A DNA stretch of 64,000 bases from the NCBI RefSeq assembly GCF_009914755.1, contig NC_060936.1; one strand, given 5' to 3'. Origin of the DNA: the human T2T-CHM13v2.0 reference genome, Homo sapiens. Made by a program: the position numbers and the translations under genes. Of the stretch, positions 17,540 to 64,000 are shown in pieces; positions within the stretch are counted from its first letter, which is position 1; each line of letters opens with the position of its first letter. Under the pieces are notes generated by a model that was not told the origin of the DNA, searched no databases, and worked only from the letters and a program-made list of their open reading frames with translations.

Positions 17540-17540
17540 G

Positions 17541-27254: not shown

Positions 27255-27414
27255 GGCTTCCCGAGTACTGCAACTGAGCTCAGAGTTCAATGACTTTGCA
27301 AAATGTAGTTTCCAACTCTTACAATTTCAGTATCTGTCAGTTTATGATCTTCCTGTCTTTAGTAGGGTAGAACCATGTGAGATGGGACACATTTGTTTTC
27401 CTTTGCTTATTGTT

Positions 27415-27537: not shown

Positions 27538-30028
27538 TCAACACTAAATAAAGGGACATTCCATCATGTGTATCCTTTCTAAGAACAAAAGTTCATGCTT
27601 TATCTTAGCCCTAGCTTAGTCTAAATTATATTGCTCAAATGAGAGATTTCTGCTGAAAATTCATGGATATAGCTCACCAGCAGATATATAGTTTATCTCA
27701 TTGTGAGAAGCAAGTGTAATATAATTGGATCTGATAGGGGCTAAATTAGCTGTTTCATAGTCTTGTGTTGGAAGAGATCATTCCTGATTATGACCTAGAA
27801 TTTACACAACTTCTTGCATATTTCATACTTTTTTTTATTTGAAGGATCCACATGAGGCAGGCCTGATATTGCTTAGATTTAGGTATTGAAGGAAAACTAT
27901 CAAATCAAGTAAAATAATAAAGAGTTGGTGACTTGCTGCATTGTTCTTTAGTAGTGTTTGTGCTTTAAAGTGAGTTTCCTGGAATGGAAGAATTTTGATT
28001 TGATGAAATCACTTCATTTCAAGTACAGCTGTGCTTAGATGAATATTTGAGACTGAATGGTTCCTAGCACCTTTTCATCACAATATAATATGTATTGCAC
28101 ACACTTAACTTTATGAAATGGGCTTTTACATTATTTTAGCTTGCACTGAAAGTAGTTGTAAGAACAGCCATACAAAGCTAGCTGATGCATTTATTATAGG
28201 AATATTGGGGAGGATGTTGTCTATTTTGCCATAGAGTAACTCTTACATAGTTTTATGGCAGATTTTTATTTTTGTTAAATCACCATGACTAGCAAAGCTT
28301 TAAGTAGTAGGCATTTACCTTATAAATAATTTGAATTCTATTTTTCTTTACTTAGCAGAGTGTTAGACTTTTCAATATAGTGATTATGTGGGCTGCAGTA
28401 GCAGATATTTTGTTTATTAACATGCCCTTTGGCATAGCCCGTAGATTTTTTCTCCCCTGCTATCTCCTTCACTCTGAATTTCTTGTCAATTCACTTAAAA
28501 TTATCTTTCATTCTAAATTTCTTTCTCTATACTCTTCAAATTATTTTGAGAATGAGGTGAAGAATAAGCATAACACGTATAAAAGACATTCCCTGATTTT
28601 GGAAAGCCAAACTTAGTAAGATTCAAATATTTTTACCAAAACTAATTCTTAATTAAAAAAAAACACATTTGAAATAAATGCCAAATTTTAAGAAAAGACT
28701 AAAAATTTTTAAAAAACATTAAATCCCAACACCATTTTTGTTGCTCTGTTTCTTATCTCAGTTAAAATATTCAGGGGTTCCCAATCATAAGCTGGGTAAA
28801 TTCAGTCACTTACCATTCATCTACCACTGCTTCTGTTCTCATAACTTCTGTTTCAGCTAAAAGGGATTCTTCGCTCTCCCATCATTTATCCTCAGGCTTT
28901 TCTGGAAGATTGGGGTTGGAATGGGGTTTGATCCTCCCTCTCTTCCTTCCTTTCTACATCTACTCATCAGCAAGTCCTGAGGCTATTCTGTCACAGTAAC
29001 CCCTGTCTTTCACGTTCTTTTGGTCACTGCTTTCCTTCAGTGTTTTGTTACCTAAAATATACAGAAACACTAAAAAATAATCGAATAAATAACTGTGACA
29101 AAGTAACAGAGAGAAAAGAAAATGTGTGGAGGTTATAGTACAAATGACACTTTTCCAATAAAGCTTTACTCTGTTCTCTTAGGTACCAAACAGGTACATA
29201 TGAAAACTTAATTTGTTACATTAAATCAGATATGTAAAGGTAAGATCCAAGGACATTGAGACAATTTTTAAATTATTGTAAACATTTTTTGTTTATTAAC
29301 AAAAACTTTAAGATGGTATTAAAGAGAACAATTAGATTGCTTTGTTGAGGTTTCCACATTCTCTAGGACTTGAGCAGCTGATTTCATTATAAAACATGTC
29401 CCATGTATTTTTGTAAACCACCAGGAATGTGCCAGGATTAGTTCTTGATCCTTTAATGCTTAGAACTGCATATTTAATGCCTGAAGTAGGTTAACACTCC
29501 GCCTTTGAAGATATTCCTTTCCTATATCTCAGGCTCTGGACTTTCCATTGCTTCATTCCTCTTTCTCATTGTAATTTAACCTTGCTTTTTGGATCTTTGA
29601 TCATTCCAGCCACAGTCTGAGAGTCTTATATCTTATCTGTGTTCCACAAAATATACGTTTGCCTTTCTGTGTATCCCCCCTCACATGACTTTGTGGTGTT
29701 AGAAGCAAGCTGAGCGAAGACAGAGACTCTCAGGGCCAAAGGAACTAGCCCTTGATAACATTGAGTTCTAATTTTGCTCCCTCCCCACATTCTATAAATG
29801 TAAGCTGAGTTACTCAGCAAAAATTAAGCAGAGAACTGCAGGAAAGAGAGATAGATATCACAAATGCTTCTTTTCCTTTTCCCAAATCCAGAGTCTTTGC
29901 TAGTTACCTTTTAATCACCCTCCAAGTCCCGTTATTAGCTTATTTTATTTCTGCTTCAATATTTTAACCTTGCTTGAATATCTTATTCTCTTCTCCTTTT
30001 CTTCACTAAGGAAACTATATACAGCTAA

Positions 30029-30337
<309 letters not shown>

Positions 30338-30768
30338 TAAAAAAATTCTTTATTCCAAATTTCCTGATGAAATTGAATTTAAAATAAAACCTTTTATTCA
30401 TTCAATATTTTACAGATTAAGAACACTCTAAATTGTCTGTTTTAAAGGAAATATTTAATGAATGTTAATTATGTTTCAGACACTGAAATTGGTGCTGAGT
30501 ATTCATGGAGAAAAATCATGAGGTTAGTCTTTATGAAGCAGAGTGTTAGATTTTAGCTATGTGAACTTCTTTAAAAAAATTTACAAGTTGGGTAATGTTT
30601 TTGTGACCAGAAATATGCTGTAAGTACTTAGCTTTTGTTTATATCCATTAGCCTATGATCAAATTGGCTTTGCTCTACCTTGCTTCACCTAAGTCACAGT
30701 TTCTAAGAATCTATTAATTGATGACGTTAAGTGAGGACTTCCTGTGTTACCCGATACATATTTGTTGA

Positions 30769-31140
<372 letters not shown>

Positions 31141-32030
31141 AATTTGAGGAACTTTTTAATCATTACACTTCTTGTAAAAAGTAGTACTATTTACCCAGTT
31201 TCTAAATTCTTTCGACTACATTATGAAGTCTTTCATAGACTCCATTATCTATGTTTAAGGCTGAATAATGAGTTAAAGACACTAATAACAATGACAAGGA
31301 GTACATGCAGTAAGAATGAAAATTAGTGGAATACGTAACATTGTGGTTAAGACTGATCAATATACAGGGATGTCCTGTATATATTTTACACATGTAAAAT
31401 ATGTGTAAAAGAGAAAGACAACAAGATGTTGACCACTGTGGGTGTTATAATGATTCCAGACAGAAACAAAAGGAAGTGAGTATTTTGCAACTGGTGATAG
31501 CTATTCAGAGACTTTTTAACATAAACCACTTTTAAACTAAAGCTGTTTGCCTTTGACTTACCAGGCTTTCCACAAATACTAAATACTGTTTAATTTGGTA
31601 ATGGTAGGATTTCCTGTCATAGAAAAGTATAATTAATATTTTCTCCTTCATTTACAGAAAGCTTAAACATGTGGATTTCAAAGTGAAATGAGCTTTTTTT
31701 AAAAGTTAATAAGCTAAACAATTAATAACTATCCGACCAAAATTACAGCAGAGCATTTGTTACAAACAGTAGGGAAACTGAAGGAAAAAATGTGTCAGTC
31801 TGCAGTCATACCGCAAAGTTGATCAGGCATATGTATACAAAACATATGTAAGTAAAATGTTAAACAATAAATAACAATGAATTGGATTAAGATTTACATT
31901 AATATTTGAAGAAAATGTAAATATTGACTAAGAGGAGAAAGGAGAAGGCAATGTTTTTCAGGCAGGGCAAACAACTGAATAAAGGTCAGGAAGTTCGAAT
32001 ACATGTACCTCTTGTAAAAAGCAATGCCAG

Positions 32031-32340
<310 letters not shown>

Positions 32341-32401
32341 CAGTACCATCTAACCTCATCTAATCCACCCAGTGTGATTGAGGGAAATAGTGTGATTAAG
32401 G

Positions 32402-33398
32402 TGAAATGGGAGAGGTCTGGCCCTCTTAGCAGGGTATGTGACGGGCATGTCTGTCTGTTTGACTGTCATGAGCTCAAATCCCTTGTGGGAGGGAGAGCAT
32501 GCAGACGGGCAGGTGCAGGAGTTGGGGTGAGCACTTTGGGCTGTGGCCCCACTGTAGTGTCTAGGGGTGGGTGCCTGGAACCCCAGTGTTACAAAGTTCT
32601 TTTAGCTCTGCCATCTGCAGACAACATAAGTGTTAACCAGCTCAGTGCCTCCCCGGCCTTTTCTCAAGGGCAGAGGGCCAGTGTGACAGCTTTCTGTATT
32701 CCAAGCTCTTGTCCAGCATCCCAGAAGAAACGGGTCACACATGAACTCAAAGGATGAATGTGGGGGTTTTACTGAGTTGTGGAAGTGGCTCCTAGTGGGA
32801 TGAATGGGGAGCTGGAAGGTGGATGAAATGGGAAGGTGATCTTCCTCTGGAGTTTGGCCATCCAACGGCCAAACTACTCTCTGACCACTCCCAGCCAAAC
32901 TCCTCTTGGCGTTCAGAAGTTCCTCCTCTTCTCTCCTTCTCTGTCATGTCATTCCACCTTTCATCTGCTTGTCTTCTCATCTCCTCGTCTGCTCATCTGA
33001 TCTGGAGCCTGGAGTTCAGGGTTTATATGGGTACAGAATAGGGGGCATGGCAGGCCAAAAGGCAACTTTTTGGGGCATGAAAACAGGAATGTCTGTCCCC
33101 ATTTGGAGCTGCCAGTCTCCCAGCTTAAGGGTGGGGCACGTGCCAGGGAACCACTCTCTTCTTTATAAATATATATATATAACATTTCAAGTTCTAGGGT
33201 ACATGTGCACAATGTGCAGGTTTGTTACATATGTATACATGTGCCATGTTGGTATGCTGCACCCATTAACTTGTCATTTACATTAGGTGTATCTCCTAAT
33301 GCTATCCCTCCCCACTCCCCCGACCCCACGACAGGCCCCGGTGTGTGGTAGGAACAACCCTCTTCTACCCAGTATTTCCCTGTCTCTTGTCTGAATCA
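32402..33398 (-). mobile_element. ERV1 solo LTR (LTR1/LTR27/LTR28 group) with nested L1PA 3' fragment (33163-33350)
   Basis: TGAT...TTCA termini; TSD aagg/aaga; nested L1 flanked by a ~16-bp TSD (33147-33162 / 33351-33366). Confidence 0.8.
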
Positions 33399-35173
33399 AA
33401 GAGAAAGTGAAATGATCTAGTATATTTGAATTAAGGATTCACAGAATGTTAAGTATATCTACTATTGTACTTTCCAATTAAAATTACTATAAAACTTCAT
33501 GGCAGGGACTATTAATTAATCATTTATTTGAACATATGTTTACTGATCACTGCAGATGTCCAAGGCACAATTCTATTTTCTGGGGACCAATGGTTAATGA
33601 ATTATACAAGCATTTAGCTTATATTATAGTAGAAGGTGGTCAGCACAGATAGTAAAGAAACATAGAAAGCAAAGATCAAGATAATTGTATATCATGGAAA
33701 GTGTTATGAATGAAGAAAAGTGATATAATCGAGTTCTTCTGGACAGGCTCAAGCAGACCCTCGTTGTGCTCATGAGGATTGGTTTGTTTAAGCTTCACTG
33801 TCAGTGCTTGGACAATTGCCCAGGTTTCTTCCATTTTTAATATGATCCAGAATAATCCAAACTTGCTTCTACGATGACAGCTGCCATTTATTGCTCTTTC
33901 TATATGCTTTTATCAGTTATATTTGTGGCAGGAATTAAATTTATGACAGATTTACTATTAAGAAAAATAAAGCACAGAGGTTCAATAACTTGCCGAAAGC
34001 CACAAGGCAAGTAAGTGTTGCTCCAGGATTTGAATCAATTTGTCTGTCTTCATAGTGCTTCATTTTAATTGGGATATTTTATTATGCTGGTCAGGTATAT
34101 TCACCTGATGGGGTAAATATATTAATACATTTCAAAATAAATTCCATCCTATATTCATCCTCTGTCTCCTTCTTGTGGCCATTTATTTTCCTTCTGCTTT
34201 TAGTTTATTTTTGTTTCCTTTAAGTCTTTGATACCTCTGGCTTTCATCTTCACTTTTCCCTATTTCTTTTTTGTAAATAATTCGGAATTAATTGTCATTC
34301 TTGCCATTCTCTGGGTACTTTCCCATTTAAACCCCACTTTAAAAGTGTCCTCTGAAATAGGCATGAAATGTGAGAACAGAAAGAACAGAGTGAGAATGAA
34401 TCCTTCTGTCATGTTAACTCAATATTTCTTTTAAGATCTTCTAAATCAATAATACTTCCACATTTAATAACTGTGTTTCCATATTTTCCAAGGTGAACAA
34501 TATTTTCTGACAAGTTTAATTCATGTGAGAGCAGCAAGAATTGTCAAAGGTGATTCCAAGTTTTTAGCTGAGAAACTGTACGTATGGAGTGTACATTTGT
34601 TAAGATGAAGAAACACATTGGGAAAAGGTACCCATTTTTTGATGTGTTAAGCTAGAAAATCCTATAATATATCAAAGTGAATATGCCAAGAATCCATTCA
34701 GATACGTGGTCCTGTAGATCAAGCGCTGGTATGGAGATAACAATTTTTGGACATTATCAATGTATGGCTGTTATCTCAAGGCACGAATCTATAAGAAATT
34801 AATTCCCATTCTGGCCATTCTCTGGGTACTATTCAATTTAGTTCATTCCAGGATAAGTTTTTTGTTTTTTTTTTAAGAAGACCAAGAATTGAACTCTAGG
34901 ACACAACAACATCTTAAATTAATTTAAAGAGGAATCAGTTAATCTGAGGGAGGATTGGGTTGTGAGTGAAGCAAAAGGAAAACCAAGAGAATGGTGTCCT
35001 AGGGAACAAAGCATTTTGGAGAAGAAAGTTTGTCACGAAAAGTGAATAATCAGTTATTTAAAATTCTGTTTATACGATGTGTAAGATGAATCCTGAGAAC
35101 TAGCCATTGGATGTGTTTATACTGAGGTAATGTTGACTTTAGCAGGAGTGTTTTTTAGAAATAGTGAAAGAAG

Positions 35174-35516
<343 letters not shown>

Positions 35517-36501
35517 CTAATTAGAATAGGTTTGGGAAGATCATAGAGAAATTTTTGAACCCATTTGTTGTTAAGAAAATTAGAGAAATGGAGTGATCAT
35601 GTGTATGGTGTTACGGTGAACAAAAGATGGCTTCTGCTTGTTTTAATATAGGAGATATTATATCATCTTTGGAAGTGAACATAAGTGAACAAGTAGAGAT
35701 GAAAAAAATGGAAAAATTGATAGAAAGAGAAAAAGAAGGAAAATTACAAGCTTGAAATCTTTAAGGAGATAGGTGGATGGATTTTAATATACAGATGGAG
35801 ATTGATCTTAGATGAGTAGTACAATTCAACCACTGTTGAAAAGAATACTACCTCATATACTGATGTAGCTGTTTTGGTATATTTGACTAGTGAAACAGAG
35901 AAAACTTCTTTCTGAATTTCTTTTTTTTCTTAAGATAATGTTAATGGAAAAGCCAGGTTATCCGTTTAGTTTGTAGAAAGAGAAGACAGAAAGAAATTTG
36001 AGAGTCTGAGAAAGAAAAAGAGATTGGGAATAATCTTTTAGGAGATTTGCAGAACAGATTGATTAGTAAGAGTGCTGAGAAGTTACATTTCAAAAACGTA
36101 AGATAAAACCAGTTAATATGATCACATTCAGCTACTTGAATGTATGCACAGAGTAGGTAGGGTTGGATTTAAACAAGCTGCATTTTCTAGATGCTTATGA
36201 TGAATGAAGAGGTAAGCAAGGAAGTTGTAGCTGTGGGTAAGAAAACGATTTTTATAATTGGCCCTGGTAAGTGGTGCATGCTGGGTATAATAGGAAATGA
36301 GACATGAGGGATTGACAACAATGAGAAGTTGGCATGGTCAGTGAAGTTGCTATCTCAGTGGGCACTGAAATGCTGTAGAGTGTAGAATACCCAGAGAGAG
36401 TGGGCTGGAAACATAGGAGGTGGAGGTCAGAGAGTGAAATATCTGAAACAGATCATGGAAGAATTTCTCATATTGGAAATGAAATTGTCTGCACTCTAGT
36501 G

Positions 36502-48585: not shown

Positions 48586-48750
48586 TAAAGAAGAAACTTG
48601 ATTCTTCCATTTCTCTTTAGCAGTTTGCCCCTGGCATTCTCACAAAGATAAAATTATTTCTTAAAGGTCAAAATCTGTGCCTCTGACTCTCACACATTTG
48701 GGTTTCGTTTTATTCCCATGAGAAAAATAAGTTCTTTCATTCCTCTATTT
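48586..48750 (-). pseudogene. Possible relic CTLD exon 6
   Basis: ttttttttaattag|A...KEL/...KPKCVRVRGTDF/...FYLCENARG...*; CTLD-terminal C...YLCE pattern on the expected strand and in the expected order. Confidence 0.4.
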
Positions 48751-49245
48751 CTAATTAAAAAAAATCTACTTTTAATAATTAAAATACCTTAGTTGGTTAT
48801 TTTGTTCCTATTAAGAAGTTACAGGTTTTTTTTTCTGGTATCTTGTATATTTTAATTCTCATTTCATGTAAACTCTTTTATACTCATTAAAAGAAAATTT
48901 CTGTTTCTGACCTTACAGTGCTCTGGATCTTGATCAGCTCCTATTACTAAGAGCTCCCTCCCTGCTGCCCTGCTATCATCATATTATCCCTGACGACCTC
49001 TACAGTAGATGCATAAATCCAGAGTTCTCAAGATTCACTAGCCCTTTGTGTCAGAATACTTCATCCTTTGATTCTGATAACTTAGCTTATGAGACAGGAC
49101 TTGATTCCAGAAATTTTCATCTCTTTCTTTTTCTTTCTTTCTTCCTCTCCTACTGCCCCTACACCCTCTCCAGTCAAAATCCCTGAGATATTTTATTTAT
49201 ATATACAGGTATATACAAATGGTATATTTTTAGGGGAAAGACCAT

Positions 49246-49670
49246 TGATATGGTTTGGATCTGTGTCCTTACCAAATCACATGTCAAGATGTAATCCCCA
49301 ATGCTGGTTGTGGGGCCTGGTGGGAGGTGATTGGGTTATGGGAGCAGATTTCTCATGAATGACTTAGCACCATCTTCTTGGTGCTGTTCTCATGATAGCG
49401 AGTTCTCGCAAGATCCGGTTGTTTAAAAGTGTGTAGCATCCCCACCAACCCCACCCCACACCCTCTCTCCTGCTCCTGCTCCAGCCGTGTGAAGTACCCA
49501 CCCCTCCTTCATCTTCCACCATGACTGTAAGTTTCCTGAGGCCTCCCCAGAAGCCCAGCAGTTTCCAGCATCATTCTTCCTGTACCGCCTGAAGAACTGT
49601 GAGCCAATTAAACTTTTTTCTTTATAAATTACCCAGTCTTGAGTATTTCTTTATAGCAATGTGAGAATTT
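49246..49670 (+). mobile_element. MST (MSTA/B-like) solo LTR
   Basis: TGATATGGTTTGG start; MaLR LTR 3' motifs. Confidence 0.85.
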
Positions 49671-50789
49671 AACATGGGTTCCAAACATGGCTTCACATCA
49701 GATTTACATGGATAGTCCCTTAAAGGCACAGATATTTGGGCCACGCGTCAGATCTATAAAATCAGAATGATTGGAAGACAGAAATGGAGAATCTGTAAGT
49801 TTCTCAAACTACACAGGTGATTTTTATTAACACAGCCTGAGTGGCAATGTTTGGATAAATAACCTCAATACTAACTCCCTGAGCAAATAGGCCCAGAGGC
49901 GAAGGTGCTGGAACCATCTTCAAACTGGATGGCTCTTTCTGCAACGTTAGCAAATTTAGTTTGGTTTGTGCAGACCACATTAGGTCAGGACAGATCAGAA
50001 TTGGGACAGATATAGTGACAGTTCTCAACTATTTCACTGTTGTAATCTTAGCCAACAAGCCCTTACTGAGGGTATTAATTGGCATGGTTGGGATGGACAA
50101 GTGATATGAAGTTTGATCTATTTAGCTCTCTGAAAATAGTTCTCAATTTTGCTGCACACTGAAATTATACTGGGGAGCTTTGAGGAAATACTGATGCCTA
50201 AGATTGTCCCACCTCTTAAGATGCTGATTTCATTGATGAGAAGTGTAGCTGGGCTATTAAAAAAATTTAAATTTCCTACATGATTCCAATCTGAAGCTAA
50301 GGTTGAAAATCCTTGTACTGAGGTTGGCCCAATGGCCCCTATTTTCAGTAAAATAGCCAACCCTCCATTATATATTAAGAAAACGGGTGAACTAGCTCCA
50401 TTGGTGATGATTACACATGGTTGAGACAGGGACAATAATGATGATTACCTGAAACTAGGATTGATGGTATATTCGAGGCTGCATACAAGCATATATAATC
50501 ATACTTGTATACATTTGTATGCACCTGGAGAAGGATTTAGACACATTAGTAACATTGTTTTCCTCAGGGTAGGTATGATGGAGTCAAATTGGGAAGAAGG
50601 GGAAATGATACACTTTTGGAATGAGAATCCACTGTGAAGCTGAGGACTGAAATCAAGAGTCAGATTATAAATAGGTGGCCAAAATTAACCATGTGGTCCT
50701 CAAGCAAATATAATTTTTTATTCCACAGGTATATTAGTTTTACTGAACAAGTAACTACAAGTAATACACCTGTCTGTCTGACTTCCTAA

Positions 50790-50912
50790 ACTTCCTTCCT
50801 TCTTTCCTTCCTTCCTTCCTTCCTTCCTTTCCCTGCCTCCCTCCCTCCCTTCCTCCTTTCTTCCTTCATTCTTTCCTTCCTTTCTCTCTCTCTTTCTCTT
50901 TCTCTCTCTCTT
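50790..50912. repeat. (CCTT)n/(CT)n polypyrimidine repeat
   Basis: Seen directly in the sequence. Confidence 0.9.
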
Positions 50913-51119
50913 TTTGAGGGTATATAATAATATAAATATAATAAAACACATCTCCTCTCAGTTCTTTCAAAACATGTCACAGCTTTCAAGCAGGCGGAAG
51001 TATCCCAACCCCTTATTAGGAAGCAGTACAGCTTGGTGCTTAAGACAATAAATTTTTTAAATCAGACAGCCATGGGTTATGTTTTTATTCTCAATGTAAG
51101 TGCTGTATATTTTAGACAA

Positions 51120-51818
51120 TGTCTCAGTCTGTTTTGCGCTGCTATAACAGAATGCCTTAGACTGAGTATTCTATCTATTTCTTGGCTCACAGTTCTAGAA
51201 GTTGGGAAGTGTAAGTTAAAGGCACCAGCAGGTTTGGTGCTTGATGAGGCCATTCTCTTCTTTAAGAAGGCAACTGTAACCTTGGGAACGGAGGAAGGTG
51301 GGATCCTCATGTGGCAGAGGGCAGAATGGCCAAGAGGCAAAAGGGGATGGAACTCATCCTTTTATAACAGCATTAATTCCACCCATGAGGGCTGTGCCCC
51401 TTAATGATCTCTTTGTTTGTTTTTATATTTAGAGACAGAGTCTTGCTCTGTCACCCAGGCTGGACTGCAGTGGTGCAATCACAGTTCACTGCAACCTTGA
51501 ACTCCTGGGCTCAATTAATCCTCCTGCCTCAGTCTTTTGAGGAACTGGTAGGTACCACAGGTGGGCACCACCATGTTCAACTATTTTTCAAAAATAAATT
51601 TTTTGTAGAAATGGGATCTTGCTATGTTGACCAGGCTGCTCTTGAACTCCTGGCTTCAAGTGATCCTCCTGCCTTGGCCTTCCAAAGTGTTGAGATTACA
51701 GGTGTGAGCCGCCTCACCCAGCCAATCACTTCTTTAAAGTTTCACACTTTAATAACTATTATAATGGTAATTAAATTACAACGTGAATTTTGGAGGGTAC
51801 AAGCATTCACACCATAGC
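51120..51818 (-). mobile_element. Old MaLR LTR (MST/MLT1-like) interrupted by an AluJ (51412-51723, -)
   Basis: tgtctcagtc...gctataacag...ccatagca termini. Confidence 0.7.
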
Positions 51819-53509
51819 AGACAGGGCTCTTAAATTATGTAAACCCTTTTCATAATAGGGTGACAAAACTCGTGCCCATCCTCTGAGATTTTTGTGAAGA
51901 AAACAAAAAGAGAGATAACCCACATGGTACAGTGAAGACCCAGTTAAGTTTAGCTGTTCTTACATTTACCATCCTCTGCTTCCCCTTAGAGAGCAGATTT
52001 GCATGATCCTTCCAGTCCCAAGAACATTCCTGCATTGGGTGCTTAGCTTGGTTTTCACCACCAATGATATTTTCCTTGGGAAAATTATCTCAGTGTAACT
52101 GAAAGGCAACAGTTTTTAAATACAAACACAATAATGAAAGTTGGTTCAGCGGCTGAGCATCAGCTCATCAGGGAAGAGAAATCATGGAGGGGAGCAACAG
52201 GGTGAATAGTAGATGGCAGGTAGCCCTAGGTAATTACCTGAGACAGGCACTATATTGCCCATGGACTATTTTTGTATCTTCTGTGCCCTTTGTGATGTGG
52301 AGGCCAGAAACGAGGTGGACAAGGATAGGGTCCAGACCCTTTCACCTTTTTGATTCCTTAGCATAGCACTGGAAATTGTAGGGAAACACTAATTGTTACT
52401 GTTATAGTTACCAAGGCCATTATTTTCAGTTCTCCAGCTTTCTTTGTTTCTAGACAGAATTTGTTTCTGAGAAAAATTACTCTCTATGGGTGAATTGATG
52501 TTGGCTTCATCAATCTTGTCCAGCCCATATGATCTGTGAGTTGTATTTTGAGTAGAGTAATTTCTAGGGGGCTCCATTCTCTCTTGTTCTTCAAGTACTG
52601 ACCTTCAATTTCCAGTGCAAGAAGACAGTATTTGATTGTTTCTGTCTTTATTTTGAAGCTCTTTTGTGTCTAAATAGGACAAGTTGGGAAGGAATACCTC
52701 TCAAAACTTACAGAGCCAAAAAATGCATCAAGGAGGGTGGGAAATGAGTCCCAGGAAGGTGAATTGGACTGAAAACCAGATTTCTGGTCTCTCTTTATCT
52801 GGGTCTGCCAAATGCACAACTGATATTTCGACAGGTGCGACTGGCAGCTGCAAATTATTCACTTATTTAACAATAGATTTTGTGTGTGTGTCAACCAAGT
52901 GCTAGTCGATATGCAAACCCTTGGGATAGATATGAAGATCAGCATGACAGGACCCTTAACCACAATAAGCTCAAAGCTAGGGGCAAAGGGGCCTACAATT
53001 TTTAAGATGGCCCTAACATGGCAGGAACTTGACAAATTCAATATGTGATCTCATCTGAGATCATTCCATACATGTGGAAACTAAAGCTTGATTTAGAACA
53101 AAGCTTGGCTAAGGTTTTACAGCCGGAAAGGGTGAAGTTAGGTTCTGAACCAGGTCCAATACATGCCAGAGCCCTATTATCTTTTCACAGAATCATAGCT
53201 GTGAGACAATGCAATGCAACAGAATATAGATTTATTATATATAATAAATAATAGATTTCAGCATGCTATCAGAACACAGAAGATGGTATGCAATGACACT
53301 TCCCATAAATGGTGACCCCACCCCAGGTGTCATCTTGTTTTAAGTATACATTTTATTACTTTTCCTAATTAAATCCGTCCTCAGCAATTTTCTTGCCTTA
53401 TGTATTGCTATCTCCCCCCATAGCCCCTGTTGCTGGTCTGATGTTGACTGATTTGAAGCCACTAGGCATGCCATCCCTACTTGCCTGCCTCATTCATAAA
53501 CATTTCTTC

Positions 53510-54233
53510 TTTAAAAACCACTTTATTGGGTATAATTGACATGTAAAAGCTGTACATACGTAATATATGCAACTTAATATTTGTAGATAAGTATACACAC
53601 ATGAATAAACCATCACCACAATGTATACCATAAACATAGGCATTATCTTGAAAAGTCCTCCTACCCTCTTTATTGTTAATATTTTTGTGTGATAAAAACA
53701 CAACGTAAGATTTACACTCTTAGAAAATTCTAAATATACAATATAGTATTGTTGTCTATAGGCACTACGCTGTACAGTAGATCTGTAGGACTTATTCATC
53801 TTGTGTAACTGAACTTTCTACCCTTTGGCTAATACCTCCTCATTTCCCTCTCCTGTAACCCCTGGCAACCACCATTCTACTATCTGCTTCTATGAGTTTG
53901 GTTATTTGAAGTTCCTCATATAAATGGTATCATGCAGCATTTGTCCTTCTGTATCTGGCTTGTTTCACTTAGCATAACATCCTCCGTATTTATTCATGTT
54001 GCTGCAATGGCAGGATTTCTTTCTTTTTTAAGGCTAAATAATATTCCATGGCATGTACCATATGACCTAGCAATCCCATGACTGGGTATATATCCAAAGA
54101 AATTGAAATTGCAATTTCAAAGAGATGCCTGAACTCCTATGTTTATTGCAGCACTGTACACAATAGCCAACACACGAAAGCAACCTCAATGTCCATTGAC
54201 ATGTGAATAGAATAAAAATAAAATGTGGCATAT
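53510..54233 (-). mobile_element. L1MA/MB with 5' inversion (53510-54056 on -, 54057-54233 on +)
   Basis: Adjacent L1 segments in opposite orientation. Confidence 0.75.
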
Positions 54234-54644
54234 TCATTTTATTAATTTAAACTATTTGTTTCTAAGAACTTTATATTTTAGGTTGTTAGTTAGAAATGAA
54301 CAAAATAAATGCTTTTATTGCTCTATGAAAGCTTGATTCCTCAGATCTAGGCCCCCATTTGTGGTATATTGCACATTTGAATTTATCATAGGAGCAAAAG
54401 AAAGTTGTATATGTTGCAGGCTATGTTTACATGACTATGTTACAGAATTAACATTTATCTTTATTTCTTTCCTATATTCCTGTTAGAAGACAATAGGATT
54501 ATAATTCAGTTGACAGAAATGTAGCTTATGGCAGTCCTTAAGTCTGTGTCTTAACTTTGGGAATTTTGGAGGCTGGTGAAGTATAAGTATAGCTTTTCCT
54601 CTGGCTCTTTTGCTAGAAGAGAAAGCAGACTTTAAGAGAAAATT

Positions 54645-55115
54645 ATTGCAGCACTATTTACAATAGCAAAACTTTGGAACCAACCCAAATGTCCACCAAT
54701 GGTAGACTGGGTAAAGAAAATGTGGCACATATACACCATGGAATACTATGCAGCCATAAAAAAGAATAAGTTCATGTCCTTTGCAGTGACATGGACGAAG
54801 CTGGAAACTATCATTCTCAGCAAACTAACACAGGAACTGAAAAGCAAACACTGCATATTCTCACTCATAAGTGGGAGTTGAACAATGAGAATACATGGAC
54901 ACAGGGAGGGGAACATCACACACTGGGGCCTGTTGAGGGGATGAGGGGCAAGGGGAGGGAGAGCATTAGGACAAATACCTAATGCATGCGGGGCTTAAAA
55001 CCTAGATGACAGGTTGATAGGTGCAGCAAACCACCATGGCACATGTATACCTATGTAACAAACCTGCAGGTTCTGCACATGTATCCCAGGACTTAAAGTA
55101 AATAAAAAATTTAAA
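54645..55115 (+). mobile_element. L1PA (older) 3' end
   Basis: ORF 54699..54881 is the ORF2 C-terminus; 3' UTR follows. Confidence 0.92.
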
Positions 55116-55141
55116 AAGAGAAAATTATAGATTCGCATAGC

Positions 55142-55487
55142 TGATATGGTTTGGCTGTGTCCCCATCCAAATCTCATCTTGAATTATAGCTCCCAGAATC
55201 TCCACGTGTCATGGGAAGGACCTGGTGAGAGGTAATAGAATCATGGGGGCGAGTTTTTTCTGTGCTGTTCTCCTGATAGTGAATAAGTCTCATGAGTTCT
55301 GATGGTTTTACAAAGGAGAGTTCCCCTGCCACCATGCAAGACATGACTTTGCTTCTCCTTTGCCTTCCACCATGATTGTGAGGCCTCCCCAGCCATGTGG
55401 AACTGTGAGTCAATTAAACCTCTTTCCTTTATAAATTATCCAGTCTCGGGTATGTCTTTCTAAGCAGCATGAGAACAGACTAATACA
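55142..55487 (+). mobile_element. THE1 solo LTR
   Basis: TGATATGG...CTAATACA termini. Confidence 0.92.
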
Positions 55488-55926
55488 GTAGACAAAAAAA
55501 AAACCTACATTTTTAATCATAAAAGGAATGGAAATTACCAAAAAATGTCTCCTAAGGGATATAAGGGCATGCTGGTTATAAGAATTCTAACAGGAATTCC
55601 AACTCATTTTTTAAAATGAGTAATTTTTAATTTTCTAGTAATGCATATTTCAGTACATGCATTTTCCCAGTATTTGAAATTGCATAGACCTCACTTAATA
55701 ATAGACCAGAACTTATAAATTTAGTCTTAGGTAGTTTGTAAGAGATGTAAACTAGTATCATACCAGGTATTATAATCCTGGCAAAAAAATAAGCTTACTG
55801 TATTCCAATCACTTTCATTATAGATCATCTGTATGAGGTTACCTCTAGGTAATCAGAGGGCTAAATAGGAAATTCATTCCATGGAAGCAAATCATTGTGG
55901 TTAAGGGCACAGATCATGCAATAAAA

Positions 55927-56150
55927 CTGCCTGCCTGCCTGCCTGCCTGCCTTCCCTCCCTCCCTCCCTCCCTTCCTCCTTCCTTCTTTCCTTCCGTTTC
56001 TTTCTGTCCCTCTCTCCCTGTCTCCTCTCTCTCCCTTTCTCTTTTTCCCCATCTCGCTGTCTCTCTCTGTCTCTCTTTCTCTCTCTCTCTCTCCCCCGCT
56101 CTCTCTCCTTCTCTCCCTCTCTCTCTCTCCTCTTTCCCTCTCTCTATCTC
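55927..56150. repeat. (CTGC)n/(CT)-rich low-complexity repeat
   Basis: Seen directly in the sequence. Confidence 0.9.
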
Positions 56151-56229
56151 GGATCACTTGGTAAACACCAAGACAAAAACCTGCCAAAAGAAAAAGGAAT
56201 AGCTCACCACAATTTTCTAAGAACTTGAC

Positions 56230-56383
56230 ACACATCAGGGAAGAGATTGTGCCATCTTATAACAGTCACAATTTCCTAAGACTCTGACACAGTCAGAGGA
56301 TTATGCCATCTTCCCACACTCACAGTTGGATATGCCATGTGATAACCCCAGCCAGGAAGGAGACAACAGTGAGACACAAGGTT
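56230..56383 (-). pseudogene. Relic CTLD exon 5 (WLGLS...WEDG) with a duplicated 3' end
   Basis: tctacag|AACCTTGTG...TCC TGG CTG GGG TTA TCA...TGG GAA GAT GGC; frameshifted; lies 924 bp downstream of relic exon 4. Confidence 0.78.
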
Positions 56384-57307
56384 CTGTAGAAGACAAAAGC
56401 AGAACATAAGCCAAATCGTCCATGATGCTGCCTCCTGGAGTTGACTTGACCATGATGAAATGTAACCGAAATTGACAATATTCCATGACACCACCACGGC
56501 TTCTGTGCTGTGGATGGACATTGAAAAAAAATGCACAAGTTAGGAAGTTGTTTTCTTATCCTGCCTTTTCCTCTGCCTCCAAACTCTATTAAATCCAATA
56601 TAAATAAAAATCTCATTAAGTGTTTACTTTTTAAAGCTTCTTCCCCGGATCAGTCGTACATTCTCTTCTTTCAGCATACTTTTCATTTACCTAGACTGAA
56701 AATTTGATTCCCTAATGAAACGTGCTCTCCTAAAACTTTCCAAAGTATTGCATTTGATTGTCAGAATTGTCAGAAGGCAGGTGAGTTGTTGTGTAAACCT
56801 TAACTTTATACAATAACAATGTATCCACCTTAGAACAATTATAAATTCAAGATACGATGTATTTTTTAAATTATTCTCTTTTTTGGTTTATATTTTATTT
56901 TCTTCTTCTTGTACACTATTATTTCCCTAGATTCTCTTTTCCAGAATGATGTGTTAGATTTGGAATTCAATAATGAAAGACAAAAATAAGTATTTAAATG
57001 AGGAAGTATATATTTCCTCTGTCTCTTTTTGTTATCCTATTCAATATGCAAAACCAGGCTGTGTGATCTAAATCAAGTTTCTTATCCTCTAAAGCCTAGG
57101 TTTCATATCTAAAAATTAGGAATGATATTACCAGACTTGTAAGGCTGTTGTTTGCACACAAAGGAAGAATTAAATGTGATCATTTATAGACTCGCCTGAG
57201 AGCATAGTATTTTATTATTAGGTACTCAATAATTTTTTTAACTTACCCTTACCTTCTCACCTCACCTCTGTAAATTTTAACAAAAGACAGGAGACCTGCA
57301 TATTTAC

Positions 57308-57466
57308 CAATTCCTTATTCTCTATATTGAGTAAGGTAGAAATTTTAGAGATCCTCTAAAAATTTTTATCCTTGCTGTCTTGCCATGTTATGGATTCCTG
57401 AATTATTTTATATTACTGGTCTTTTGCTCCATTGCCACCTTTCAGGACAGGGCTTACATCCATTAT
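57308..57466 (-). pseudogene. Relic CTLD exon 4 of a dead Dectin-1-cluster lectin
   Basis: ttttcag|AT AAT GGA TGT AAG CCC TGT CCT GAA AGG TGG CAA TGG...GAA TTG|gtaaat = (D)NGCKPCPERWQWSK/DQ*YKIIQESITWQDSKDKNF*RISKISTLLNIENKEL. One frameshift, two stops, splice sites intact. Confidence 0.88.
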
Positions 57467-57645
57467 CTGAAAAGCCAGACGTATATATTAATTATCTTGA
57501 TTTCTTTATATTAAATATGGACCATTTAATGCAATGTTTGAGTTAGTCTTACAAATATCTCATTTCCTCCCATGTTCACAATAGCCAAAATATGAAAACA
57601 AGCTAAATGTTCATTTCATTGATGAACAAGTGGATAAAGAAAACA

Positions 57646-57647
<2 letters not shown>

Positions 57648-57714
<67 letters not shown>
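57648..57714. repeat. (TG)n(TA)n microsatellite
   Basis: Seen directly in the sequence. Confidence 0.95.
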
Positions 57715-57716
<2 letters not shown>

Positions 57717-58019
57717 AGAAAAAACTTTCCACAAGAACCTCCATGTCCTCATTTAGAATTTAATTTAATTTTTTACCTCACACACCTCTTTTTTTTTTTT
57801 TTTACTTCCACTTGACACCTTTCTGGGGTAATAGGTATGTTGTACCTGAATTCCACTCTCCCTCAAAATATCTGTCTCAAATTTGTATATACATTAGTAG
57901 GTATCAATCAGGAAGGTCTCCCTCAACCCATTCAATAGGCCCTGCCACAAAATTTGAAAAGTTTAAAAAATTCAGAGCCCTGCTTATGTACATGGGTGTA
58001 CATTTTTGCAGACAAAAAT

Positions 58020-58969
58020 CCCCTGTGCCCTACCTACTCAGCAATCTTCCCCCTTCCTATCAATCTTCCTCTTCCCCTGAATCATTGGTCACAACTGATC
58101 TCTTTGTTTTCTTTGTCTTGGTTTTTCTCGAATGTCATATAGCTAGGATAATATGATAGCTTTTCAAACCGGCTTCTTTCACGTAGTAATATGCATTTAA
58201 GATTCCTCCATGTTTTTCATAGTTTGACAACATTTCATTTTGTTGTCGAATGATACTCCATTGCATGAATGTACCACAGTTTGTTTATCCACTCATCTTT
58301 TGAAAGACATCATAATTACTTCTAATGTCTGGCAATTATGAATAAAGCTCCTGTGAAAATGTGTGTGCCAGTTTTTGTGTGTGTTGGGAGCAAGCCCCCC
58401 AAAATCCGGCCATAAACTGGCCCCAAAACTGGCCATAAACAAAATCTCTGCAGCACTGTGACATGTTCATGATGGCCCTAACACCCATGCTGGAAGGTGG
58501 TGGGTTTACGGGAATGAGGGCAAGGAGCAGCTGGCCCGCCCAGGGTGGAAAACCACTTAAAGACATTCTTAAGCCACAAACAATAGCATGAGCAATTTAT
58601 GCCTTAAGGGCATGTTCCCGCTGCAGTTAACTAGCCCAACCTATTTCTTTAATTCGGCCCATCCCTTTGTTTCCCATAAGGGATACTTTCAGTTAACCTA
58701 ATATCTACAGAAACCATGCTAATGACTGGCTTGCTGCTAATAAATACGTGGGTAAATCTCTGTTCGGGGCTCTCGGCTGTGAAGGCTGTGAGACCCCTCA
58801 TTTCCCACTTCACACCTCTATATTTCTGTGTGTGTCTTTAATTCCTCTAGCGCCTCTGGGTTAGGGTCTCCCAGACCGAGCTGGTCTCAGCAGTGTGTAC
58901 AGGTTTTCCACTTTCTATGGTTCCTAGATTGTCTGTTAATACTATACTTACCTCTATAAGAAACTGTCA
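58020..58969 (-). mobile_element. Old L1M, left part (hosts MER9); continues inverted at 60410-60653
   Basis: L1 3' region motifs; shares a 55-bp junction with the right part. Confidence 0.75.
58382..58892 (+). mobile_element. MER9 (HERV-K9/HML-3) solo LTR
   Basis: TGTTGGGAGCAAGCCCCCCAAAATC...GGTCTCAGCA, 511 bp, TSD gtgtg. Confidence 0.88.
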
Positions 58970-58974
58970 AGTTT

Positions 58975-59110
58975 ACCGGGCCGCGAGGGTGCAGGCTGCG
59001 CAGATGGTGTGGTCCTGCGCCCCGAGGGCCGCAGCAGCTCATCCGGCAGCTCCCACCCCAACAACCTGGAAGGGGGCGGGACTTCCGTTTGTACCCGGCT
59101 GTGGCAATCT
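58975..59110. promoter_or_regulatory. CpG-rich micro-island, probable bidirectional promoter (MER52-like LTR fragment)
   Basis: About 11 CpGs in ~125 bp in an otherwise CpG-poor region; GGGGCGGGACTTCCG combines a GC box and an ETS site. Confidence 0.65.
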
Positions 59111-59114
59111 GTGG

Positions 59115-59409
59115 TGAAGTTGAAATGCTTTTCTGCTAGACTGGCAACATGTTTTGATTCTTCTCAAATAACTCGCAAGCTCTTGTGAAGCACAACGGCC
59201 TACCTTGTCCTGAAGAAAACATACTCTAAGGCCCACAGATGATTAAACCCAGCCATTTATGTGACAATAGCATTTTTATTTTTCTTATCAAGATCTGGGT
59301 ATTTGATCCACACAATGGTAAAGATTCCCATGTTAGCCAAGATCTAAATGATTCAAACTGATGATACTCTCTGCAGAAGAGGTAAGAACCACTGGCAGTA
59401 GGGTGGAAG
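59115..59409 (+). other. CLEC9A: Probable CLEC9A non-coding first exon (5' UTR)
   Basis: Follows a CpG/GC-box/ETS promoter; donors GAAG|gtatgt (59410) and GAG|gtaaga (59382). Position ~20 kb after the CLEC12B ATG fits recalled gene order. No CLEC9A coding exon is in the window. Confidence 0.6.
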
Positions 59410-59868
59410 GTATGTCATTACAGATGATGCTGACAGAGAAGGTCATCTGAACCTACTTTATAAGAAAGGCATGATTAAAGGAGAAAGGGGAAAGGGCATT
59501 CTAGGTTAGGAAAGATTCTGAAGAAATGTAAAATAATATGAAGGTGTGAGCTGATATATTTAAGAAATAATGAATGATATGTGGGAGTATGTATCATCTG
59601 CAGAGATGGATGAGGGAAGATGCAAGTGGAGGGGAAGGCTGGAGCCGCTGGTGGAAAGACGTTAAGTGTATTTCAATGGCCTGATACTGCAGGCAGTAGA
59701 CAGCCTCTGTAAATCAGGTAGCTTCCTTACTCTTGCTCCTACTGATCCCTCAGTCTAAAATGCCCTCTGCACTTTCTCTTTAGAGATAGAGAGGGAAAGG
59801 GAGTCAAACACGAAATCTCCAGGAGGCCATCCCTGGTTATTTCTTACTCCTCTGTTGATTTCCTTTAA

Positions 59869-59967
59869 TCTGTGAAGTGTCTTCTAACTCGTGGCCTGAG
59901 GCTTTAGTGACTCTGCTGACTCATTGTCTGGTGCTACTGATTGTGCTAATGGTCTTCGATATTGTGT
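59869..59967 (+). pseudogene. Relic transmembrane exon 2, inverted relative to relic exons 4-6
   Basis: 99 nt, aligns without gaps to CLEC12B exon 2: xCEVSSNSWPEALVTLLTHCLVLLIVLMVFDIV vs GHPAPSPIWRHAALGLVTLCLMLLIGLVTLGMM. Acceptor reads tttaa and donor reads ccagt, so both are lost. Confidence 0.8.
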
Positions 59968-60737: not shown

Positions 60738-60739
60738 AA

Positions 60740-61101
<362 letters not shown>

Positions 61102-63058
61102 AATAGGGATTTCAAGCTTGTAATTTTCTTTCTTTGGTTCGCTCTGGCACTATCAATTTCTTTTCATCTCCACTTGTTCACTCACCTTCACCTCCCAACA
61201 TGGTATAATATCTCCTATGTTAAAAACAAGCAAAAGCCATCTTTTGTTTACCATGCCCCCATACACACGATTCTAATTTTCTTATATTTCTTCTTAACAT
61301 TTCTCTAATTTTCTTGACAACAAAAATGTTCAAAAATCTCTCTGTGCTTACTGTTTCATCCTACTTTTCCTTTATGTTAATTAGGCTTTTTCCTTCACTA
61401 TTTCTATGAAAACACTCCAGTCAAAGTCACCATTAACCTCCACATGAACACATCTAATGGCTAGTTCTCAGAATTCATCTCACGCACCAGATAAGCATTC
61501 AAAAAAAAAAAAGATTATTCCCTTTTCATAACATACATTCTTCTCTAAAATACAGTGTTCCCTAGGACACCGTTCTCTTCAATTTCCTTTTGCTTCATTC
61601 ACAACCCAATCCTCCCTCAGATTTGGATTCCTCCTTAAATTAATTTAAAATGTTGTTGTGTCCCAGAATTCAGTTCTTGGTCCTCTTGTTTTTTTTTTAA
61701 TTTATCCTGGGATGAACTAAATTGGATAGTACCCATAGAATGGCCAGAATGGGAATTAATCTCTTGTAACCTCATGACTTAATAGCCATACATTGATAAT
61801 GTCCAAAATTATATTTCCATACCATTGCTTGATCTCCAGAACCACATATCTGACTGGATTCTTGGCATATTGACTTTGATATATTTTAGGATTTTTTAAC
61901 TTAACACATCAAAAAATGAGTGACTCTTCCCAATGAGTTTCTCCATCTCGATAAATGAATATTCCATACCTACGGTTCCTCTGCCAAAAACTTGGAATCA
62001 CCTTTGACTTTTCTTGCTGCTCTCACATGAATTAAACATGTCAGAAAATATTGTTCACCTTGGAAAATATGGAAGCACAGTTATTAATTATGGAAATATT
62101 GTTGATTGAGAATACCTTAAAAGAAATGCTGAGTTAACATGATAGGAGGATTCATTCTCACTCTGTTCTTTAACAGTCTTTCCATTCTCACATCTTATGC
62201 CTGTTTCAGAGGACACTTTTTAAGTGGGGCCTAAATTGGATAGTACCCAGAGAATGGCCAGAATGACAATTAATTCAGAATTATTTACAAAAAAAGAAAT
62301 AGGGAAAAATGAAGATGAAAGCCAGAGTTATCAAAGGCATAAGGGAAACAAAAATAAACTAAAAGCAGAAGAAAAATAAATGGCCACAAGGAGGAGACAG
62401 AGGATGGATATAGGATGGAATTTATTTTTAAATGTATTAATATAGTCACCCAATTAGGTGAGTATGCCTGACCAGGATAATAAAATGTCTGAATTAAAAT
62501 GAAGCACTGTGAAGACAGGCTGATTGATTCAAATCCTGGATCAACACTTACTTGCCCTGTGGCTTTTGGCAAGTTACTGAGCCTCTGTGCTTTATTTTTC
62601 TTAGCAGTAAATTTGTCATAAGTTTAATGCCTACCACAAATGTAACTGATAAAAGCATATAGAAAGAGCAATAAATGGCAGCTGTCATAGTGGAAGTAAG
62701 TTTGGATTATTCTGGATTATCTTAAAAAAAGGAAGAAAGCTGGGACATTGCCCAAGCACTGACAGTGAAGCTTAAACAAACCAATTCTCATGAGCCCAAC
62801 CAGGGTCTGCCTCCAGCCTGTCTGGAAGAACTCGATTATATCACTTTTCTTCATTTGTAGCACTTTTCATGATGTAAAATTATGTTGATCTTTGCTTTCG
62901 ATGTAAAATTATATTGGTCTTTGCTTTCTATGTTTCTTTACTATCTGTGCTCCCCACCCTTTACTATAATACAAGCTCATTGCTTGTATGATTCATTAAC
63001 GATTAGTCCCCAGAAAATAGAAACATGCCTGGGACTTCCACAGTGATCAATAAACATA

Positions 63059-63817
63059 TGAAATGGGAAAAGTTCTCTTGTCCCCCTAGCAGAGTGTGCA
63101 ATGGAGGTATGGCTCGCTTCTTCAGTGCCCCGCTACTCAGACCTCTAGGGGAGGGGCAGGCTGTGGGGCTCCGGCCCCACGGTAGTGTCTAGGAGTAAAT
63201 GTTTGTATCTGAAGCCCCAGTGGGCGTGTGTTACAGGGTGCTCTTTTAGTTTAGCCGTCCATAGGTGGCTTGTGTTAGTCAGCTCAATTAGACCCCTACC
63301 TTATAGCAAGGACAGAGGCTTTCTGCATCCCAGGGTTCTTACCTTGGTGTACTGGAAGAATCAGATCACACGTGGGCTTGGAGAATGAGTGCAAGGTTTT
63401 AGTGAAAGGAAGTAGCTCTCAGCGGATGGTGGAGCCAAAAGGGTGATGGTTTTCCCCTGGAGTCTGGCCACTCAGTGGCCCAGGCTCTCCTCTGATTGTC
63501 CCGGCCAAACTCTGCCTTGTTTCACCAGTTGGTGGCCTGCCGATATGCTCTTGACGTCCAGCCACTTATGTCTTGTTCCATTGATGACTACTCTCAATGT
63601 CCAGCCACTTATGTGTCTGCCTGCTAGGGTCTTGGGGGTTTTATAGGCACAGGATGGGGACATGCGGGCCAGGATGGTCTTGGGAAATGCAACATCTGGG
63701 CATGAAGGCAGGAGTGCCTGTCCTCATCCAGGTCGGTGGGCAAAGGCCCGGGTGTGGAGCCCTCGCCAGGGATCCGCCTTTCTCTATCCAGCACTTCTCT
63801 GCCCCACTTCTGTATCA
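63059..63817 (-). mobile_element. LTR1-family ERV1 solo LTR
   Basis: Minus strand starts TGATACAGAAGTGGGGCAG and ends CCCATTTCA; TSD cata. Confidence 0.85.
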
Positions 63818-64000
63818 CATATGTTCAAATAAATGATTAATTAATTGCCCTTGCCATGAAATTTTGTAGTAATTTTAAAGGAAAGTGCAATGGCAAATAT
63901 ACTTAACATACTATGAATCCTCAATTCAAATATACTTGATCAGACCACTTTCCCTCAATCAATCGCACTATTTCCCATAATCGCACTGAGTAGATTAGAT

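What the first reader, a model, noticed from the sequence alone, without database searches (positions are those of the whole stretch)
48586..59967. Fossil of a lost Dectin-1-cluster C-type lectin gene between CLEC12B and CLEC9A
Seen in sequence: exon relics with the sizes, phases and motifs of the three intact neighbours. Exon 4 (57308-57466, -) reads NGCKPCPERWQW...TWQDSK...STLLNIENKEL with intact AG/GT. Exon 5 (~56230-56383, -) has WLGLS...WEDG. A weaker exon 6 (48586-48750, -) has C...FYLCE. A 99-nt transmembrane exon 2 lies at 59869-59967 (+). Introns are present, so it is not a processed pseudogene. Exon 2 is only ~60% identical to CLEC12B by eye, which points to an ancient paralogue. Inference: it may still be intact in other mammals, i.e. 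a unitary loss of an immune receptor in the human lineage. I do not know whether it is already annotated.
Basis: partly seen in the sequence, partly recalled or inferred. Interest (0 to 1): 0.9.

Follow-up and report, generated by a model that had tools for sequence, protein, structure and literature searches.

The report
Split fossil lectin gene beside CLEC9A
Between human CLEC12B and CLEC9A lie decayed exons, absent from the RefSeq gene table, that likely come from one once-working CLEC12B-like immune receptor gene; it probably died tens of millions of years ago, its halves face opposite ways, its splice sites are reused by a lncRNA and likely by CLEC9A, and no intact copy was found in other mammals.

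Summary
Partly confirmed. Exon 4 (57308-57466, -), exon 5 (to 56383, -) and the transmembrane exon 2 (59869-59967, +) are real relics (nhmmer E 4e-8, 1e-5, 5e-5). The claimed exon 6 is not above chance and no exon 3 was found. Exon 2 faces away from exons 4-5. The last 91 nt of CLEC9A's non-coding first exon (59291-59381) are probably the relic's coding exon 1. The lncRNA LOC102724020 splices into relic exon 5. Both blocks lie in the unique 25 kb between an 18-kb inverted duplication, the known primate CLEC1B/CLEC12B rearrangement. The relic is at most 42% identical to any protein retrieved and keeps a codon-position signal, so it was likely a working paralogue. Its decay (about 0.1-0.2 changes per site, wide limits) is too old for a human-specific loss. 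No intact orthologue turned up in four protein searches or in published rat, carnivore and other inventories. However, an ITIM-transmembrane-stalk gene follows CLEC12A in panda gene models, and 4 of 7 carnivores list an 'unknown' gene at the matching place. It has no trace in human and is probably a different gene. Verdict: a new unprocessed pseudogene of a known kind, moderate interest.

The parts
57308..57466 (-). Relic exon 4 (first exon of the lectin-like domain); AG/GT intact, one frameshift, two stops, two conserved Cys lost
56208..56383 (-). Relic exon 5 (WLGLS...WEDG, two frameshifts) followed by a ~54-nt tandem repeat; the whole stretch is exon 2 of lncRNA LOC102724020, which uses the relic acceptor
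   Evidence: RefSeq table
59869..59967 (+). Relic exon 2 (99-nt transmembrane exon), open but with both splice dinucleotides lost; opposite strand to exons 4-5
59291..59381 (+). Probable relic exon 1 (91 nt, phase 1): the 3' part of CLEC9A's non-coding first exon, ending at its annotated donor; ATG and ITIM no longer readable
   Evidence: rank 5 of 1011 GTRAG donors; rank 19 and 38 of 527,816 windows; missed
58952..59150 (.). GC-rich divergent start region shared by LOC102724020 (-) and CLEC9A (+), between the two relic blocks
   Evidence: RefSeq table; (GC 0.56-0.57, CpG o/e 0.57-0.68)
48586..48750 (-). Claimed exon 6: not distinguishable from chance
   Evidence: (z 2.8 for a pre-selected site)
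17537..35813 (-). Left arm of the inverted duplication (holds CLEC1B)
60739..64000 (+). Start of the right arm of the inverted duplication (runs on to 78259, holds the CLEC1B pseudogene LOC100421202)

Best explanation
These exons are likely the remains of one once-functional CLEC12B-like type II lectin-like receptor gene that probably stood between CLEC12A and CLEC12B, on CLEC12A's strand, and died between the placental radiation and early primates. Shown: the exon homologies, the lesions, the opposite strands, the bracketing inverted duplication and the reuse of the exon 5 acceptor. Inferred: the ancestral order CLEC12A - [exons 1-2] - [exons 4-5, CLEC12B] - [CLEC1B] - CLEC9A became CLEC12A - inverted CLEC1B copy - inverted [CLEC12B, exons 5-4] - [exons 1-2] - CLEC1B pseudogene - CLEC9A, with exon 3 lost at a junction. 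This needs either one template-switching event, or a small older inversion followed by the primate one. The gene makes no protein. Its start region and splice sites likely survive as parts of other transcripts: the exon 1 donor in CLEC9A's 5' UTR and the exon 5 acceptor in a lncRNA antisense to CLEC12B. In life it would have been a myeloid receptor, probably ITIM-type like CLEC12A/B (inferred from the 91-nt exon 1 only).
For: Exon homology: (X-read exons 4-5 score 51.4 bits, best of 1000 shuffles 7.8; breaks were placed by me). Single copy in the genome. CLEC12B is the best-scoring human paralogue for exons 4 and 5 and second to CLEC1A for exon 2 (z 7.3 against 7.7). Former function: identity to CLEC12B by codon position is 0.54/0.64/0.45 (P 0.015), like the six intact paralogues, and there is no intron homology with CLEC12B. 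Age: conserved-residue loss gives d 0.09-0.10, indels give 0.11-0.23, against 0.072 per copy for the duplication. One gene: the two blocks hold complementary exons (1-2 and 4-5) 1.8 kb apart. Rearrangement; PMC3322459; carnivore gene order in PMC11484026 Suppl. Table 2. No close living relative: at most 42% amino-acid identity in a 45-row panel; 103 hits were CLEC12B-like (73-100% to CLEC12B exon 4) or CLEC12A-like (34-47%), none between.
Against: The strand flip needs an extra event that was not observed. Exons 3 and 6 were not found. Exon 1 was missed by two of four tests and the two that found it are not independent. Trees do not place the relic: long branch (1.17-1.24), and AU tests reject neither a union with CLEC12B (p 0.18, 0.43), nor with a monotreme clade (0.41), nor with the panda gene (0.43). 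Dating limits are wide (0.01-0.33 and 0.02-0.49), and exons that are still detectable are biased towards low decay. A gene does sit at the predicted ancestral place in 4 of 7 carnivores and its sequence was not seen.
Confidence: 0.58

Rival explanations
1. The relic, whole or its exon 4-5 block, is the orthologue of gene 'Y', the ITIM-transmembrane-stalk gene that follows CLEC12A in panda gene models. The lectin domain would have broken before primates and carnivores split, with the front half living on in some mammals as a receptor without a normal lectin domain.
For: Synteny: only one 'unknown' gene is listed between CLEC12A and CLEC12B, on CLEC12A's strand, in dog, ermine, bear and sea lion. 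Fused models P0099, P0100 and P0148 show Y directly after CLEC12A. Relic exon 1 fits Y as well as CLEC12B (minimum distance 35 each). Relic and panda exon 4 share Gln before a conserved Cys (0 of 137 family motifs) and Arg for another Cys (0 of 115) (panda aligned by eye).
Against: Relic against Y: transmembrane exon 6/32 and 8/32, exon 4 10/42; against CLEC12B 12-14/32 and 18-19/47. About 45% would be expected for neutral orthologues (my estimate). A Y profile finds no trace in 264 kb. Two shared rare residues among about 25 derived sites is near chance. That Y is the table's 'unknown' gene is itself inferred.
Confidence: 0.25
2. The two blocks are halves of two different dead genes: exons 4-5 from a gene downstream of CLEC12A, and exons 1-2 from a gene head-to-head with CLEC12B, upstream of CLEC1B. 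One staggered inversion plus one small deletion would give today's layout.
For: Opposite strands. No exon 3 links them. The exon 1-2 block abuts the inner end of the duplicated arm at 60739.
Against: It needs two genes that lost exactly complementary exons and ended up 1.8 kb apart, both CLEC12B-like. No second copy of the block was found at the other arm's inner end.
Confidence: 0.2
3. One reading: a full six-exon lectin receptor is still intact in some non-primate mammals and was killed in primates, perhaps by the CLEC1B/CLEC12B rearrangement itself.
For: Former purifying selection. The low decay estimate (0.09-0.10) is close to the age of the duplication (0.072), which splits the gene. Monotremes have eight cluster genes (PMC13076529), and the relic shares CKPCPE and YKI with some of them.
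Against: No such protein. Seven-gene clusters are reported for most eutherians examined, rat and carnivores. Three frameshifts in 357 nt suggest an older death.
Confidence: 0.12
4. A dead-on-arrival duplicate of CLEC12B that never functioned.
For: CLEC12B is the nearest human paralogue, and exon 4 identity (66%) exceeds all 21 intact pairs (51-64%).
Against: Codon-position pattern and 0.77 retention of conserved first and second positions, within the intact range 0.77-0.89. No flanking homology.
Confidence: 0.07

Closest known systems
[quoted passage not shown]
   Same: Probable 91-nt phase-1 exon 1, 99-nt transmembrane exon, exon 4 with CxPCPxxW and intact phase, WLGLS and WEDG motifs; 58-66% DNA identity to CLEC12B
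   Different: No open frame, exons 3 and 6 not found, ITIM unreadable, about 40% amino-acid identity, halves on opposite strands
LOC100421202, the annotated CLEC1B pseudogene 8 kb away (duplication described in PMC3322459)
   Same: Unprocessed pseudogene in the same rearranged interval
   Different: That one is a young copy (323 of 354 exon bases match CLEC1B) of a living gene; the relic has no close parent
Monotreme 'CLEC12B-like' and 'CLEC1B-like' genes (P0229, P0244, P0245, P0248)
   Same: Extra cluster members absent from human; 36-41% identity over exons 4-5
   Different: No closer than CLEC12B; placement unresolved
Clec2m and KLRA1P-type lineage losses in the NK complex (PMC2910302 and PMC11484026, passages)
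   Same: NK-complex lectin-like genes present in some mammals and missing or dead in human
   Different: Those have identified intact orthologues; this one has none so far

Membership tests
Dectin-1-cluster (group V) C-type lectin-like gene, as a relic | Lies inside the CLEC12A-OLR1 cluster | tested here: met
   RefSeq table
Dectin-1-cluster (group V) C-type lectin-like gene, as a relic | Exon 4-5 homology to the lectin-like domain with family splice phases | tested here: met
Dectin-1-cluster (group V) C-type lectin-like gene, as a relic | 99-nt transmembrane exon | tested here: met
   opposite strand, splice sites lost
Dectin-1-cluster (group V) C-type lectin-like gene, as a relic | Six collinear coding exons | tested here: not met
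   exons 3 and 6 not found; exons 1-2 inverted against 4-5
Dectin-1-cluster (group V) C-type lectin-like gene, as a relic | Tyrosine motif (ITIM or hemITAM) in exon 1 | tested here: inconclusive
   the probable exon 1 aligns ungapped to ITIM exons but the motif has decayed
Dectin-1-cluster (group V) C-type lectin-like gene, as a relic | Pfam Lectin_C match | tested here: inconclusive
   0 of 3 short pieces; the intact control exon is also under the cut-off
Unitary pseudogene | Disabled frame and no close functional parent in the same genome | tested here: met
Unitary pseudogene | Functional orthologue at the syntenic place in another species | tested here: inconclusive
   none found; candidate Y fits by place but poorly by sequence; no other mammalian genome available
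Recent duplicated pseudogene of CLEC12B | High identity and intron or flank homology with the parent | tested here: not met
Processed pseudogene | Exons joined without introns | tested here: not met
   a 924-nt intron with GT/AG separates exons 4 and 5
Already annotated pseudogene | Listed in GENCODE or Ensembl pseudogene tracks | not testable with these tools
   absent from the RefSeq RS_2025_08 table supplied; GENCODE not held

The most novel reading that the evidence does not exclude
The Dectin-1 cluster has an unrecognised eighth placental member between CLEC12A and CLEC12B. It survives in carnivores and other mammals as an ITIM receptor with a degenerate or missing lectin domain (gene Y), and this relic is its primate corpse. 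The CLEC1B/CLEC12B rearrangement cut it in two and handed its start region and first exon to CLEC9A, giving the human dendritic-cell receptor a primate-specific 5' end.
Probability: 0.2. Interest if true: 0.72.

Novelty: new member of a known kind. Interest (0 to 1): 0.45.

Why it matters
It adds a lost member to a much-studied immune receptor cluster that reviews count as seven genes. It narrows an inner junction of the primate CLEC1B/CLEC12B rearrangement to the stretch between 57466 and about 58950, if the one-gene model holds. It suggests that the annotated first exon of CLEC9A (DNGR-1) is a recycled coding exon, so human and mouse CLEC9A regulation may differ at the 5' end. The side result, an unnamed ITIM-transmembrane gene after CLEC12A in panda gene models with no trace in human, may matter more than the relic itself for comparative immunology.

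Tried and rejected
tblastn with single human neighbours sees only exon 4 (E 3e-4 to 7e-4) and exon 2 weakly. That exon 2 belongs to LOC100421202: rejected, it has its own. Exons 1-3 left beside CLEC12A at 13.8-17.6 kb, as a simple inversion predicts: not found. A stalk-exon signal at 60400-60530 (rank 1, top): rejected, it lies in an A-rich interspersed repeat with many genomic copies. Homologue search with the stop-free exon 2 frame: 0 of 19 candidates at E 10, weak evidence. The representative search used one intact CLEC12B protein; its top 150 of 5032 hits were crowded by multi-domain lectins, and no relic-weighted profile was run on that library, so a diverged intact orthologue could be missed. 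Atlas look-ups of Y gave leads only: a 'CLEC12B-like' cluster at 0.90 and ten unnamed chordate clusters, the top three 97-138 aa at 0.91-0.92. Trees did not resolve placement; the aligner dropped the relic's exon 1, so that tree rests on exons 2 and 4. LOC102724020 has no ORF over 38 codons. Ten literature searches found no description of the relic. Hao et al. 2006 was not held and Sattler et al. 2010 was not seen; either could mention it.
Full report
Observation. I rebuilt the neighbouring genes from the annotation and from the genome and tested each claimed exon. Nucleotide profiles from the human paralogues (seven genes for exons 2, 4, 5 and 6; four for exons 1 and 3), run over 264 kb, found three unannotated hits in the interval: exon 4 at 57478-57303 (-, E 4.3e-8), exon 5 at 56363-56296 (-, E 1.4e-5) and exon 2 at 59877-59956 (+, E 4.8e-5). 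The best hit on the reversed sequence had E 0.23. A frameshift-aware protein profile gave 121.5, 49.1 and 57.3 against reversed maxima of 50.0, 42.9 and 49.7. Anchored at AG sites, exons 4 and 5 ranked 1 of 988 and 1 of 752. The claimed exon 6 ranked 2 of 675 and scored below the control strand's best; I count it unsupported. No exon 3 was found.

Anatomy. Exon 4 keeps AG/GT but has a 1-nt insertion, in-frame indels and two stops. Exon 5 has two frameshifts (29 nt before the WLGLS Trp; 38 nt between the two Trp codons against 42 in CLEC12B) and ends in a tandem repeat. The RefSeq lncRNA LOC102724020 uses exactly this acceptor, skips exon 4 and runs antisense into CLEC12B; it has no ORF over 38 codons. 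Exon 2 is on the other strand and has lost both splice dinucleotides. The donor of CLEC9A's non-coding first exon lies 487 nt upstream of it. The 91 nt before that donor align to CLEC12B exon 1 with no net length change (rank 5 of 1011 GTRAG donors, real first exons included). Read ungapped in phase 1, they rank 19 and 38 of 527,816 windows against two other first exons. Searches missed this exon and the positive tests are related, so I call it probable (about 70%). The locus is thus two head-to-head blocks, exons 1-2 (+) and exons 4-5 (-), around a shared GC-rich start region.

Setting. Self-comparison shows an inverted duplication, 17537-35813 against 78259-60739, with the long blocks 78-90% identical; K2P is 0.144, or 0.072 per copy. 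The arms hold CLEC1B and its pseudogene LOC100421202, which has its own exons 2-6. PMC3322459 (part 2 of 6 and passages read) describes this duplication and a primate inversion of CLEC1B and CLEC12B; the word 'pseudogene' does not occur in its text. PMC13076529 (passages and supplement rows) reports seven cluster genes in most eutherians examined, the flip in human and chimpanzee, and eight genes in monotremes. Undoing the rearrangement puts exons 4-5 between CLEC12A and CLEC12B on CLEC12A's strand. A simple inversion would leave exons 1-2 beside CLEC12A, and they are not there, so one further event is needed.

Was it ever functional, and when did it die? Identity to CLEC12B by codon position is 0.54, 0.64 and 0.45 (P 0.015), like the six intact paralogues (P 0.005-0.026). 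Retention of conserved first and second positions is 0.77, at the low end of the intact range of 0.77-0.89. With no intron homology to CLEC12B, this points to a long-lived working paralogue. It keeps 10 of 13 and 22 of 30 family-conserved residues, giving d 0.09-0.10 (limits 0.01-0.33). Three to six indels in 357 nt give 0.11-0.23 (limits 0.02-0.49). Recalled neutral distances from human (about 0.007 to the chimpanzee ancestor, 0.05 to simians, 0.12 to primates, 0.16 to boreoeutherians; from memory, no call) place the death between early primates and the placental radiation. Death by the rearrangement is allowed but not shown.

Search for a living orthologue. An alignment of CLEC12A and CLEC12B exon 4 with three stop-free relic pieces gave 103 proteins among 260 candidates. 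All were either 73-100% or 34-47% identical to CLEC12B exon 4, the named ones CLEC12B, CLEC12A or hypothetical, and none matched the relic closely. A HMMER search of 1.84 billion representatives with one CLEC12B (best 150 of 5032 seen) added families at 35-42% to all human paralogues, which proved to be platypus and echidna genes. The exon 2 frame found nothing. The relic is at most 42% identical to any of 45 rows, sits on a long branch, and AU tests reject none of its candidate sisters. The rat inventory (PMC2910302, passages) lists no extra gene. A 2024 review (PMC11624271, passages) had nothing bearing on it.

Gene Y. Suppl. Table 2 of PMC11484026 (parts 1-2 of 3 and search rows) lists an 'unknown' predicted gene between CLEC12A and CLEC12B, on CLEC12A's strand, in 4 of 7 carnivores (dog, ermine, brown bear, sea lion; not cat, civet or elephant seal). 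The passages of main text that I saw do not discuss it, and the paper's FASTA supplements could not be read. Separately, two panda CLEC12A models and unnamed record P0148 run on into a second gene with an ITIM start (VTYATL), an acidic stretch, a transmembrane segment and a stalk, clearly conserved between the two records; in panda a degenerate exon-4-like piece follows. Human has no credible match to it (best E 3.7) and no relic above noise in 264 kb. The human relic resembles Y less than it resembles CLEC12B (6-8/32 against 12-14/32 in exon 2; 10/42 against 18-19/47 in exon 4), though it shares two residues unseen in the family. I give orthology about one chance in four. Otherwise Y is a second gene missing from human.

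Verdict. A real unprocessed pseudogene of an old CLEC12B-like receptor, split across the primate rearrangement, with splice sites reused by living transcripts. It is not in the RefSeq table or in the papers that ten searches returned; GENCODE and two older subscription papers could not be checked. The claim of an intact receptor elsewhere is unproven and, for a full lectin receptor, unlikely on present evidence. New member of a known kind; interest 0.45.

Noticed in passing
P0099, P0100 (from residue 196), P0148 (from residue 445); syntenic place just after window 13760: Unnamed ITIM-acidic-transmembrane-stalk gene ('Y') fused to CLEC12A in panda and one unnamed gene model; probably the carnivore 'unknown' gene; no human match or relic found
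   Followed up: partly
window 59091-59381: The annotated CLEC9A transcript starts 22 kb before its first coding exon (81098) and spans the whole CLEC1B pseudogene; this first exon is probably recycled from the relic and may be primate-specific
   Followed up: partly
window about 58380-58895: LTR-like insertion between the two relic blocks; it looks like a MER9/HERV-K9 solo LTR (label recalled, from no call); only 58714-58893 is masked in the table
   Followed up: no
window 67528-67629 (L002:3528-3629): The CLEC1B pseudogene has a well-kept exon 2 (96 of 99 bases match CLEC1B) upstream of the annotated start of LOC100421202 (69251)
   Followed up: partly
window about -31070 to -32720, minus strand (L019, L020): Weak lectin-domain exon 4 and 5 hits inside the span of LINC02470; perhaps the human relic of Clec2m, which PMC2910302 could not find in human and which carnivores have at this place
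   Followed up: no
window 34493-34627: Alternative exons of CLEC12A (ending 34550) and CLEC12B (starting 34551) abut inside the left duplication arm
   Followed up: no
PMC11484026 Suppl. Table 2, between GABARAPL1 and KLRD: A second 'unknown' locus (ermine XM_032347259.1; pseudogene in cat) outside this window
   Followed up: no
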